DNA of 16,682 bases from a virus (lineage: Duplodnaviria > Heunggongvirae > Uroviricota > Caudoviricetes), in the IMG/VR virus record IMGVR_UViG_2671180643_000014, one strand, 5' to 3'. The position numbers were made by a program, and so were the translations under genes. The notes beneath the pieces are model-generated. The model did no database searches and was not told the DNA's origin. It worked only from the letters and a program-made list of their open reading frames with translations. Each line of letters starts with the position of its first letter. The stretch's first letter is position 1. This document shows, piece after piece, positions 14,606-15,221 of this stretch.

Positions 14606-14668
14606 CTCACTGAGATTAAAGCAAAGCGCAAAATTGCGCGGTCGGGCAGAATGACCACCACCTCAATC

Positions 14669-14703
14669 GTGACGGAGAGTGACAACCAGTGACACACCGT
14701 GAC
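14669..14703 (+). repeat. Four GTGAC(A) direct repeats phased at exactly 10 bp
   Basis: GTGAC begins at 14669, 14679, 14689 and 14699. Confidence 0.6.
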
Positions 14704-14756
14704 AAAAAGACGGTTTAACCGTTCATTAAAAATCGACGTGATTTTGTGCTTTCCGG

Positions 14757-14781
14757 ATGACGTGGCCAACGTCATTTTTTA
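14757..14781 (+). terminator. Intrinsic terminator at the end of the island
   Basis: ATGACGT-ggcca-ACGTCAT stem-loop followed by TTTTTT. Confidence 0.6.
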
Positions 14782-15082
14782 GCGAAAAATTCTGATTAAG
14801 GTCACTGGCTGAATGGTCATAATGACCACGCAGACCATCGAGGCAACCATAGCGATCATCGTTACGGTTGGAGCTTTTCCGCCATTGGTGGAAAAGGTGC
14901 ACATCTGGATCATCATTACGGTGATCAAGGGTATGTAAAACCCACCAGCCTGATTAAAGGTTAACCGGAAAAAAAACCAGGTGGCCCCGTTATGGGGATC
15001 CCCATATCGACATTAACGCCCCTCATGAATTGGTGCGCTTCCCCCTGGAAAGATTACCCGCCTGTATATTTCTTGTGTCTAT

Positions 15083-15100
15083 TTGTTCCACGTTGTTTCA
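15083..15100. promoter_or_regulatory. Copy C of repeated motif (ttgttccacgttgtttca), candidate right att or arm site
   Basis: Reverse complement of 1295-1312 and a shortened direct version of copy B. About 120 bp downstream of the phoQ stop. Confidence 0.45.
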
Positions 15101-15221
15101 TACAGTGCACCGAACGGTGTAGTTAATGGTGTAGTCAATTTGCTGTTTTTAGCACTTTTTGCAGTGTGAGTTGTTTAATTAAATCAATGGGTTGCCTTGC
15201 TGTGGTGATAAAAGGACATAT

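What the first reader, a model, noticed from the sequence alone, without database searches (positions are those of the whole stretch)
14606..15221. Repeat- and palindrome-dense right junction between the island and phoQ
The region contains four GTGAC repeats phased at exactly 10 bp (14669-14703), a 15-bp perfect palindrome tggtcataatgacca (14814-14828), a 14-bp perfect palindrome atggggatccccat (14992-15005), GGTT(T)AACC palindromes at 14711 and 14959, and motif copy C (15083-15100). Helically phased repeats beside palindromes are typical of integrase arm-type and accessory-factor sites at an att junction. The exact core cannot be fixed without the left end.
Basis: seen in the sequence. Interest (0 to 1): 0.45.

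Follow-up and report, generated by a model that had tools for sequence, protein, structure and literature searches.

The report
Right end of a phage satellite island
This stretch is the non-coding right tail of a capsid-forming phage satellite (cf-PICI) inserted just after the phoQ gene: its true attachment site occupies only the last ~135 bases, while the eye-catching GTGAC repeats lie 500 bases away in a separate, conserved cassette of still unknown function.

Summary
The listed features are real. The four GTGAC units at an exact 10-bp phase never arose in shuffles. Long palindromes are enriched about 7-fold.

The whole region down to 15213 is island DNA: island-free E. coli match only from 15214. 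The island is a cf-PICI-type satellite inserted between roxA and phoQ.

The crossover is a 7-bp overlap, GGACATA (15214-15220), beside the phoQ stop codon and flanked by inverted core-type sites. The working arm is 15083-15213. The same 75-nt module recurs upstream of int in relatives, and the 12-mers change with integrase type.

The GTGAC array and the palindromes are not part of this arm:
- The array is 511 bp from the crossover.
- It is absent from a sibling island whose integrase is 90% identical.
- It occurs with three different integrases.
- It always follows one small gene, orf93.

It is a discrete conserved cassette whose binding partner is unknown. Similar phased GTGAC arrays sit inside replication-initiator genes of many phages. 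The other palindromes are mostly terminator-like hairpins. Verdict: an ordinary att junction plus one unexplained cis-element.

The parts
14324..14605 (+). orf93, the last gene of the island's late operon. It is a small basic helical protein (phrog_1561, function unknown) and the constant upstream neighbour of the GTGAC cassette.
14599..14639 (+). One copy of a repeated hairpin module (GGTAACTnnnTGAnATT ... GCGCAAAATTGCGC). Relatives carry 1-4 tandem copies with six different but always complementary stems. On the minus strand it reads as a terminator-like hairpin followed by a T-rich tail.
14667..14714 (+). GTGAC cassette: four GTGAC units at a 10-bp phase (14669-14703) plus the conserved tail AAAAAGACGG. 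It is a discrete conserved cis-element with an unknown binding partner and is not part of the att arm.
14710..14722 (-). Hairpin ACGGTTTAACCGT followed on the minus strand by CTTTTTG. It is intrinsic-terminator-like for leftward transcription.
14757..14780 (+). Hairpin ATGACGT-GGCCA-ACGTCAT followed by a T run. It is the probable intrinsic terminator of the late operon (capsid to terL to orf93).
   Evidence: Read from the sequence. The stem is present in both the MFE and the centroid fold. Not flagged by the simple scan.
14809..14835 (.). Recurrent motif CTGAATGrTCATnATGAyCACGCAGA containing the 7+1+7 palindrome TGGTCATAATGACCA. Relatives have 2-3 diverged copies. Candidate operator, or part of a small hydrophobic ORF.
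14779..14928 (-). Candidate small hydrophobic ORF (49 aa; conserved part M(I/F)(A/V)(M/V)VA(S/L)MVCVVIMTIQ). A promoter-like site lies at 14939-14912 (minus). Not annotated in any genome and unproven.
14991..15006 (.). 16-bp perfect palindrome TATGGGGATCCCCATA. Its core GGATCCCCATATCG is kept in all five compared island lineages whatever the integrase type, with two single-base changes just 5' of it, and it extends to about 28 bp in two lineages. Role unknown.
15083..15099 (+). Candidate sites for the AlpA-type excisionase/regulator.
15116..15139 (+). Tandem 12-mers GGTGTAGTTAAT and GGTGTAGTCAAT. Candidate integrase arm-type sites.
15182..15194 (+). IHF-consensus match AATCAATGGGTTG, preceded by an A/T tract and 12 bp left of the core-type site.
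15206..15213 (+). Island-side core-type integrase half-site TGATAAAA. It is the inverted repeat of TTTTATCA on the other side of the overlap in the reconstructed attP.
15214..15220 (.). 7-bp overlap (crossover) region GGACATA. Together with the next TTT it forms the 10-bp identity GGACATATTT shared by attL and attR.
15221..15228 (+). Host-side core half-site TTTATTCA. It contains the complement of the phoQ stop codon (15222-15224), and the PhoQ protein is unchanged by the insertion.

Best explanation
Region 14606-15221 is the non-coding right tail of a roughly 15.2-kb capsid-forming phage-inducible chromosomal island (cf-PICI type). The island carries int, alpA, a D5/P4-alpha-like primase with its own origin, HK97-like capsid, protease and portal genes, HNH, TerS, TerL and orf93. 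It is integrated between roxA and phoQ.

Shown:
- The island ends at 15213/15220.
- The crossover is the 7-bp overlap GGACATA (15214-15220), one base from the phoQ stop codon.
- In the reconstructed attP the overlap is flanked by inverted 8-bp half-sites, TGATAAAA and TTTTATCA.

Inferred: the working attachment arm is only the last ~135 bp. It holds two phased TTGTTYC units (probably bound by the AlpA-type excisionase), two tandem 12-mers (probably bound by the arm-binding N-terminal domain of the integrase) and an IHF site that bends the arm onto the core. The same 75-nt composite sits upstream of int on the other arm.

Everything further left (14606-15080) is a mosaic spacer that recombines freely between satellite lineages. 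It contains:
- Hairpins that behave as transcription stops for the late operon (rightward) and for read-through from phoQ (leftward).
- The GTGAC cassette, a separate 10-bp-phased protein-binding array. It travels with the upstream gene orf93, not with the integrase, replicase or packaging modules.

My best guess is that the cassette is a gene-plus-site module bound by the orf93 product or by a phage or host factor. It plays no part in the att recombination complex.
For: Junction and core:
- All 5426 complete E. coli genomes match phoQ, but only 520 carry the upstream tail. The rest match from window 15214/15217.
- Empty site, attL and attR were compared directly.
- The core pair, and a 75-nt arm repeat, are the top direct repeats across the whole island in the closest relative.

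Integrase and excisionase:
- Int has Arm-DNA-bind_3 and Phage_integrase domains; AlpA matches PF05930.

Arm sites:
- Sibling islands at tqsA, cspD/clpS and thiM keep the same layout.
- In the tqsA sibling about 30 bp next to the crossover is swapped.
- The 12-mers change with integrase type. GGTGTAGTCACT occurs three times (both attL copies and one attR copy) and GGTGTAGTCATT once at tqsA. GTGTGGTCAGTT occurs on both arms at thiM, where Int is 67% identical.
- Phased TGTTYN arrays occur only in att arms, the int-alpA spacer and upstream of the capsid gene: 6 phased pairs vs 0.05 expected.
- The KplE1 excisionase TorI binds GTTCG-type sites 2 nt apart next to the int promoter (PMC2951348).
- The IHF consensus has only 2 hits in the window, one of them here.

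GTGAC cassette not part of att:
- It is absent from sibling L004.
- It is present with phoQ, clpS and thiM integrases, with RepA or primase replicons, and with cf or rpp packaging.
- No phased GTGAC pair occurs elsewhere, including the attL arms.
- It lies downstream of the orf93 coding end in 29 of 34 occurrences by a codon-pattern test. The other five did not match the pattern, and at least L009 and L038 have an orf93 homologue there.
- The GTGAC units are invariant while four spacer positions vary, and the flanks can be unrelated.

Terminators.
Against: - The window itself lacks attL (it starts at the int ATG), so the core and left arm are inferred from relatives. The closest relative is 96% identical over 94% of the window, and no exact source genome was found.
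- No binding, excision or transcription data exist for any site.
- Assigning the 12-mers to Int and TTGTTYC to AlpA rests on co-variation across only four integrase types and on an analogy. The window's AlpA shows no detectable sequence match to TorI, and the int-alpA array is missing in the clpS and thiM islands.
- orf93 gave no fold or family clue, and orf93 also exists without the cassette, so the orf93-cassette pairing could be simple linkage.
- The plus-strand terminator was not called by the simple scan.
Confidence: 0.72

Rival explanations
1. The GTGAC cassette is a phage-type replication origin or origin mimic. It would be an iteron array recognised by the replisome-organiser initiator of a helper or resident temperate phage, letting the satellite be replicated by that initiator or titrate it. 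The layout resembles a lambda-type origin: four iterons, about 45 bp of A/T-rich DNA (14704-14750), then a hairpin.
For: - The pattern GTGAC-N5 x4 hits at least 120 IMG/VR contigs (capped). In 68 of them, forming one homology cluster, and in several smaller clusters, the array lies inside a gene scored as a replication initiation protein (phrog_1408/3729/15931) and is often followed by a DnaB-like helicase.
- Cultured coliphage Evi has two GTCAC clusters inside its initiator gene.
- The array is independent of the island's own int, rep and packaging modules.
Against: - The island has its own primase and a classical origin with different iterons (GGTAGAGG, 6045-6280). It encodes no replisome organiser.
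- The cassette is optional among siblings and strictly linked to orf93.
- Its spacers are unlike those of phage arrays, and no phage or plasmid in the collections matches it.
- Some GTGAC hits are plain 10-bp tandem repeats between terL and portal genes, so the pattern is not specific to origins.
- That the phage arrays are origins is itself an inference from their position.
Confidence: 0.15
2. One reading: the GTGAC repeats and neighbouring palindromes are integrase arm-type or excisionase sites of an unusually long attP arm.
For: - Four helically phased direct repeats are the classic form of excisionase arrays (for example mycobacteriophage L5 Xis; own knowledge).
- The island encodes an arm-binding integrase and an AlpA excisionase.
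- The array is on the island side of the junction.
Against: - The array is 511 bp from the crossover, beyond any characterised attP (own knowledge: lambda about 240 bp, HP1 about 420 bp).
- It is absent from an integrated sibling whose Int is 90% identical.
- It is shared by islands with three different integrases and cores.
- It has no counterpart on any attL arm.
- A better candidate set of sites exists within 135 bp of the core on both arms.
Confidence: 0.05
3. The spacer acts mainly at the RNA level. Region 14606-14780 would be the structured 3' UTR of the late operon, possibly processed into a small RNA. Region 14905-14704 on the minus strand would be a small transcript encoding a hydrophobic peptide (a type I toxin-like gene) or a small RNA. 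The repeats and palindromes would then be RNA hairpins.
For: - Hairpin modules keep complementarity with six different stems.
- There are terminator-like hairpins on both strands and a promoter-like site at 14939-14912 on the minus strand.
- A hydrophobic ORF tolerates only hydrophobic replacements between two lineages.
- Fold z-scores are about -1.9 on both strands.
Against: - No Rfam family matches, even at E up to 1.
- The fold z-scores are modest.
- A 1-bp indel and alternative sequence versions break both small ORFs between lineages.
- There is no Shine-Dalgarno sequence, no Pfam or PHROG hit, and no annotation in about 1200 genomes.
- An exact 10-bp phase points to DNA-level rather than RNA-level recognition of the GTGAC array.
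Confidence: 0.2

Closest known systems
EcCIEDL933 and the capsid-forming PICIs (cf-PICIs) of E. coli (bioRxiv 10.1101/2022.09.08.507074)
   Same: Same gene set and order: int, alpA, replication module, HK97-like capsid, protease and portal, connectors, HNH, TerS (P27 family) and TerL. No tail or lysis genes, about 15 kb, and a dedicated chromosomal att site.
   Different: The paper, in the passages I searched, does not describe the att core, the arm sites or the non-coding tail after terL/orf93. The window is not identical to any complete E. coli genome (best 96% identity over 94% of the window). I could not confirm which att site EcCIEDL933 itself uses.
KplE1 (CPS-53) recombination module: IntS, the excisionase TorI and attL (PMC2951348)
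   Same: - The int gene starts just inside attL, so its promoter overlaps the arm sites.
- Integrase arm-type repeats sit beside a block of excisionase sites with GTTCG-type cores about 10 bp apart.
- IHF is involved.
   Different: - KplE1 has a different integrase and a different att site (argW tRNA).
- The window's AlpA shows no detectable sequence match to TorI.
- Here the composite module is duplicated on both arms.
- Nothing has been tested experimentally.
Lambda attP (heterobivalent integrase, core C-O-C', arm sites, IHF and Xis sites)
   Same: A 7-bp overlap flanked by inverted core-type sites, arm-type direct repeats on both arms, an IHF consensus between arm and core, and an accessory excisionase.
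   Different: The integrase is P4-like (Arm-DNA-bind_3). The site sequences are unrelated. The arm layout (tandem 12-mers plus phased heptamers, in the same order on both arms) is not lambda's.
Origins embedded in phage initiator genes (lambda ori inside gene O; SPP1 oriL inside gene 38; own knowledge)
   Same: The GTGAC cassette has the form of such iteron sets: 4-5 units at a 10-bp phase followed by A/T-rich DNA. Identically phased GTGAC arrays lie inside replisome-organiser genes of many phages.
   Different: Here the array is intergenic, lies next to an unrelated small gene, and the island has another origin and no such initiator.
Rpp-type (classical) E. coli PICIs such as EcCICFT073 (PMC6092414, PMC6739421)
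   Same: They share the same right-end block (orf93, mosaic spacer, arm module) and the same integrases and att sites.
   Different: They lack capsid and TerL genes and use lambda-like cos sites with an Rpp protein. No lambda-type cosN is present in this region.

Membership tests
attR/attP of a heterobivalent tyrosine integrase | A short identical core at both island-host junctions, present once in the empty site | tested here: met
   attB GTATGG(G/A)CATATTTATTCA in K-12. attL ..GGACATATTTTATCA and attR ..GGACATATTTATTCA in relatives L001/L003 and in the window. The window itself lacks attL.
attR/attP of a heterobivalent tyrosine integrase | Inverted core-type half-sites flanking a 6-8 bp overlap | tested here: met
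   Reconstructed attP TGATAAAA-GGACATA-TTTTATCA.
attR/attP of a heterobivalent tyrosine integrase | An integrase with a separate arm-binding N-terminal domain | tested here: met
   PF13356 Arm-DNA-bind_3, E = 5.8e-18, residues 8-95.
attR/attP of a heterobivalent tyrosine integrase | Arm-type repeats on the arms that change with the integrase | tested here: met
   A 75-nt composite repeat on both arms. 12-mers: GGTGTAGTTAAT (phoQ); GGTGTAGTCACT, with one GGTGTAGTCATT copy in attR (tqsA); GTGTGGTCAGTT (thiM).
attR/attP of a heterobivalent tyrosine integrase | Protein binding and site-specific excision or integration | not testable with these tools
   Needs footprinting and PCR for the excised circle.
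Excisionase (RDF) binding array, applied to the GTGAC x4 repeats | Phased direct repeats within the att arm, close to the core and specific to the recombination module | tested here: not met
   511 bp from the overlap. Absent in L004, whose Int is 90% identical. Present with three integrase types. Absent from the attL arms.
Excisionase (RDF) binding array, applied to the TTGTTYC arrays | Phased direct repeats within the att arms next to integrase sites | tested here: met
   A 10-bp phase on both arms in all four integrase types. Binding by AlpA is inferred only.
cf-PICI satellite | int, alpA and own replication module and origin, plus capsid, protease, portal, HNH, TerS and TerL; no tail or lysis genes; 10-15 kb | tested here: met
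   Pfam, PHROG and RefSeq annotation of relatives; origin at 6045-6280.
cf-PICI satellite | Induction by a helper phage and packaging into its own small capsids | not testable with these tools
   Experimental.
Phage replication origin of the replisome-organiser type | An iteron array (phased GTGAC) lying inside or beside the cognate initiator gene | tested here: not met
   The array is present, but the island has no such initiator, and the array is intergenic after orf93.
Phage replication origin of the replisome-organiser type | An adjacent A/T-rich unwinding region | tested here: inconclusive
   14704-14750 is A/T-rich in the window. In relatives L052/L077 the flank differs but is also A/T-rich.
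Intrinsic terminators | A G+C-containing hairpin followed directly by a T run | tested here: met
   Minus strand 14722-14710 and 14639-14626. Plus strand 14757-14775 plus T run. The number of scan hits is not above chance (2 vs 1.4).
Any Rfam RNA family | A covariance-model match | tested here: not met
   No match at E up to 1 in 14200-15400 on either strand.

The most novel reading that the evidence does not exclude
The GTGAC cassette is a satellite-borne copy of the iteron set that temperate phages carry inside their replisome-organiser genes. A PICI would use it as a second, helper-dependent origin, or as a decoy that sequesters the helper's replication initiator. That would be a new layer of satellite-helper interplay, acting at the level of replication initiation.
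Probability: 0.15. Interest if true: 0.7.

Novelty: new member of a known kind. Interest (0 to 1): 0.33.

Why it matters
The att junction itself is routine, but fixing it has practical value. It gives the exact insertion point (one base from the phoQ stop codon, separating phoPQ from roxA), the core, and a testable map of integrase, excisionase and IHF sites. These apply to a satellite family that is being studied intensively and engineered as a gene-delivery vehicle.

The comparison also shows that cf-PICIs and classical rpp-PICIs share one interchangeable right-end block. Retargeting to new att sites goes with a swap of about 30 bp next to the crossover and small changes in the arm 12-mers.

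The GTGAC cassette is a conserved, unannotated cis-element present in many E. coli satellites. If it binds a helper-phage initiator or the orf93 product, it would reveal an unrecognised function in these islands.

Tried and rejected
- **Known RNA:** Rfam scan of 14200-15400 at E up to 1 found nothing.
- **Phage or plasmid origin of the spacer:** blastn of 14606-15213 and of the cassette against 50,697 phage and 72,556 plasmid records gave no significant match.
- **Exact source genome:** none among 5426 complete E. coli genomes.
- **P4-alpha-type iterons:** I considered that the TTGTTYC arrays were origin/crr sites of the island's primase. Rejected because the origin with GGTAGAGG iterons lies at 6045-6280, and the arrays persist in L001, which has a RepA-type replicon.
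- **cos or packaging site:** rejected. The cassette occurs with both TerS(P27)/TerL and Nu1/Rpp-type packaging modules. The G+C-rich gap before terS (12186-12308) is the likelier cos.
- **orf93 function:** no Pfam hit; PHROG 'unknown'. All 120 homologues listed (of 913 found) are named 'hypothetical' or 'prophage protein'. The AlphaFold model has pLDDT 67 and is all-helical. The Foldseek PDB search gave nothing below E = 0.3.
- **TorI homology of AlpA:** phmmer against the PDB found only an AlpA-family entry (8c3t), not TorI.
- **Small ORFs on both strands:** no family hits, broken by indels between lineages, mostly non-synonymous changes.
- **Literature on GTGAC iterons:** none found.
- **PhoP-box or response-regulator reading of the repeats:** considered from memory only and dropped. 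The period is 10, not 11, and there is no supporting evidence.
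Full report
**1. The observation**

- The four GTGAC units start at 14669, 14679, 14689 and 14699. This is the only four-fold, 10- or 11-bp-phased pentamer in the window, and none appeared in 200 dinucleotide-preserving shuffles.
- Long palindromes are enriched. Three have arms of 6 or more, against 0.40 expected (p about 0.006), which puts the region top of 53 tiles of the window.
- Minor corrections apply. The '15-bp palindrome' is 7+1+7. The '14-bp' one is really 16 bp (TATGGGGATCCCCATA, 14991-15006). GGTTTAACC is the centre of a 13-bp hairpin (14710-14722). 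GGTTAACC at 14959 is no more than chance would give.
- Motif copy C (TTGTTCCACGTTGTTTCA) has an exact copy at 1295-1312 (minus strand) and a near copy at 7738-7755. The chance expectation is 0.04.

**2. What the window is**

ORFs, Pfam, PHROG and RefSeq annotation of close relatives show a satellite of the capsid-forming PICI kind.

| Feature | Coordinates |
|---|---|
| P4-like integrase with an arm-binding domain | 1-1230 |
| AlpA | 1596-1784 |
| Icd-like proteins | not mapped individually |
| D5/P4-alpha-like primase | 4292-6040 |
| Classical iteron origin, GGTAGAGG repeats | 6045-6280 |
| SSB | 6635-7045 |
| HK97-type capsid | 7924-9126 |
| Protease | 9166-9738 |
| Portal | 9740-10951 |
| Connector proteins | not mapped individually |
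| HNH | 11579-12019 |
| P27-family TerS | 12309-12665 |
| TerL | 12649-14310 |
| orf93, a 93-aa protein of unknown function | 14324-14605 |

phoQ runs leftward from 16682 to 15222. The family is described for EcCIEDL933 (bioRxiv 10.1101/2022.09.08.507074). That paper does not treat the att site or this tail in the passages I searched.

**3. The junction**

- All 5426 complete E. coli genomes match the phoQ part of a 1.2-kb probe. Only 520 carry the upstream tail, and the others start matching at window 15214 or 15217.
- In K-12 the empty site, 75 bp between roxA and phoQ, reads GTATGGGCATATTTATTCATC.
- In the two closest island-bearing relatives, attL reads GTATGGACATATTTTATCAATTAG. attR, identical to the window, reads GTGATAAAAGGACATATTTATTCATC.
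- The reconstructed attP core is therefore TGATAAAA-GGACATA-TTTTATCA: 8-bp inverted half-sites around a 7-bp overlap.
- In window coordinates the island half-site is 15206-15213, the overlap is 15214-15220, and the host half-site TTTATTCA is 15221-15228. The host half-site contains the complement of the phoQ stop codon (15222-15224).
- The PhoQ protein is the same accession with and without the island.
- The window begins at the int ATG, so attL is inferred from relatives. No complete genome is identical to the window; the best is 96% over 94%.

**4. The real arm**

Across the whole island of the closest relative, the largest direct repeat is a 75-nt composite present once upstream of int and once at window 15065-15139. 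The core pair also appears in that list. The composite and its neighbours contain:

- Two tandem 12-mers, GGTGTAGTTAAT and GGTGTAGTCAAT (15116-15139).
- Between these and the core, one of only two matches in the window to the IHF consensus WATCAANNNNTTR (15182-15194). It is preceded by an A/T tract.

Sibling islands at three other sites (inside tqsA, between cspD and clpS, and upstream of thiM) keep this layout.

- In the tqsA sibling, about 30 bp next to the crossover differs. The core there is ATAACAGCA.
- The 12-mers change with the integrase. At tqsA (Int 90% identical), three of the four copies are GGTGTAGTCACT and the second attR copy is GGTGTAGTCATT. At thiM (Int 67% identical), GTGTGGTCAGTT is on both arms.
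- The TTGTTYS units stay constant.
- Phased TGTTYN arrays occur nowhere in 35 kb of one relative except the two arms, the int-alpA spacer and upstream of the capsid gene. In the window that is 6 phased pairs against 0.05 expected.

I therefore assign the 12-mers to the integrase arm-binding domain. I assign the TTGTTYC arrays to the AlpA-type excisionase/regulator. The published analogue is KplE1, where the excisionase TorI binds GTTCG/GATCG/GTCCG sites 2 nt apart beside the intS promoter (PMC2951348). These assignments are inference. AlpA shows no detectable sequence match to TorI, and the int-alpA array is absent from two lineages.

**5. The GTGAC array is something else**

- It lies 511 bp from the overlap.
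- It is missing, as part of an 80-bp indel, from the tqsA sibling.
- It is present in islands with the phoQ, clpS and thiM integrases, with primase or RepA replicons, and with cf-type or Nu1/Rpp-type packaging.
- No phased GTGAC pair exists anywhere else in the window or in any attL arm examined.
- A specific scan of IMG/VR found 30 further copies. In 29 of the 34 occurrences examined, the orf93 C-terminal codons lie 35-420 bp upstream of the cassette. The other five did not match the codon pattern, although at least two of them (L009, L038) have an orf93 homologue there.
- Where the cassette abuts orf93 there is usually a fifth unit. The longer distances are filled by 1-4 inserted hairpin modules.
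- The GTGAC units never vary, whereas four spacer positions do. The flanks on both sides can be unrelated.
- It is thus a discrete, conserved cassette (CGTGAC ... GTGAC AAAAAGACGG) linked to orf93.
- orf93 itself gave no functional clue. It is basic (pI 9.5) and predicted all-helical at pLDDT 67, with no structural or family match.

**6. A lead on the cassette**

- The bare pattern GTGAC-N5 x4 hits at least 120 viral contigs; the listing is capped.
- In 68 of them, forming one homology cluster, and in several smaller clusters, the array lies in the middle of a gene scored as a replication initiation protein or replisome organiser. It is often followed by a DnaB-type helicase.
- Coliphage Evi has two such clusters in its initiator gene.
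- By analogy with lambda ori inside gene O (own knowledge), these are probably origin iterons.
- The window's cassette is followed by about 45 bp of A/T-rich DNA and a hairpin, which resembles that layout.
- Against an origin role here: the island has its own origin and no such initiator. The cassette is optional. Some hits to the pattern are plain tandem repeats between terL and portal genes.
- I rate this reading at about 0.15.

**7. The rest of the spacer**

- Region 14599-14639 is one copy of a roughly 45-bp module (GGTAACTnnnTGAnATT plus hairpin). Relatives carry it 1-4 times, with six different but always complementary stems.
- Terminator-like hairpins face both ways. Two are on the minus strand, at 14722-14710 and 14639-14626. 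One is on the plus strand, at 14757-14775 followed by a T run.
- The plus-strand hairpin is well placed to end the late operon. The minus-strand ones are well placed to stop read-through from phoQ.
- The 7+1+7 palindrome belongs to a motif (CTGAATGrTCATnATGAyCACGCAGA) that recurs 2-3 times in relatives.
- The core of the 16-bp palindrome, GGATCCCCATATCG, is invariant in every lineage compared. Two lineages have single-base changes just 5' of it. The palindrome extends to about 28 bp in two lineages. Its role is unknown.
- Small hydrophobic ORFs exist on both strands (14779-14928 minus; 14813-14938 plus). They lack family hits and ribosome-binding sites and are broken by indels between lineages.
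- Rfam finds nothing, and fold z-scores are about -1.9.

**8. Verdict**

- The att apparatus is the last ~135 bp plus the core. It is ordinary in kind (lambda- or KplE1-like), so this is a new member of a known kind.
- The GTGAC cassette is a real, conserved and unexplained cis-element of E. coli phage satellites, tied to orf93. It is the only part of the region that might repay experiments.
- Overall interest is modest (0.33). The most novel reading still open, a helper-phage origin mimic, has a probability of about 0.15.

Noticed in passing
window 6045-6280: The island's replication origin. At least 10 GGTAGAGG/CCTCTACC-type iterons in both orientations flank an A/T-rich stretch, immediately after the primase gene (4292-6040).
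   Followed up: partly
window 1286-1325 (minus) and 7729-7755 (plus): Arrays of 4-5 and 3 TTGTTYC units at an exact 10-bp phase, in the int-alpA spacer and about 170 bp upstream of the capsid gene. These are the same unit as in the att arms. They are candidate AlpA operator or activator sites. The int-alpA array is absent from the clpS- and thiM-type islands.
   Followed up: partly
window 12186-12308: A G+C-rich, unannotated gap between the HNH/small ORF and terS (ggggtgggggg ... accccgccc). This is the likely cos site of the satellite's own HK97-type packaging system.
   Followed up: no
L004, L006, L008 (tqsA); L007, L009, L014 (cspD/clpS); L010, L013 (thiM): Sibling satellites use at least four att sites, and insertion in tqsA splits that gene. 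cf-type and rpp-type PICIs share the same right-end block (orf93, spacer, arm). In the tqsA sibling the sequence differs from the window's in about 30 bp next to the crossover.
   Followed up: yes
L015-L134 (IMG/VR) and L135:1629-1653, 1889-1913 (phage Evi): 10-bp-phased GTGAC/GTCAC arrays lie inside replication-initiator (replisome organiser) genes of many unrelated temperate phages. They often sit next to a second short tandem repeat such as TCTCTTC or CTTTATC. They are probably embedded origins. I found no paper describing them.
   Followed up: partly
L016, L027, L048, L050 and others: A different class of hit to the GTGAC pattern: a plain 10-bp tandem repeat of variable copy number (GTGACAAACG/GTGACATTCA) in the gap between terL and the portal gene of HNH-type packaging modules in high-G+C phages.
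   Followed up: no
L002:2998-3004 versus window 15214-15220: K-12 has GGGCATA in the overlap, whereas island-bearing strains and many island-free strains have GGACATA. This attB polymorphism might affect integration efficiency.
   Followed up: no
window 15214 leftward; L001:2260-2509: The insertion separates roxA (ycfD) from phoPQ, placing about 15 kb and the int promoter region between them. In the empty site roxA starts 75 bp after the phoQ stop on the same strand, so any co-transcription would be broken.
   Followed up: no
window 1350-1379: Two copies of GTGACTG(A/T)TTTT, 18 bp apart, just downstream of the phased TTGTTYC array between int and alpA.
   Followed up: no
window 1842-2867 and 2860-3327: Two consecutive proteins whose C-terminal parts both match Icd-like or 'transcriptional repressor' PHROGs (phrog_6196/1743). 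The 341-aa one has a long N-terminal extension without any match.
   Followed up: no
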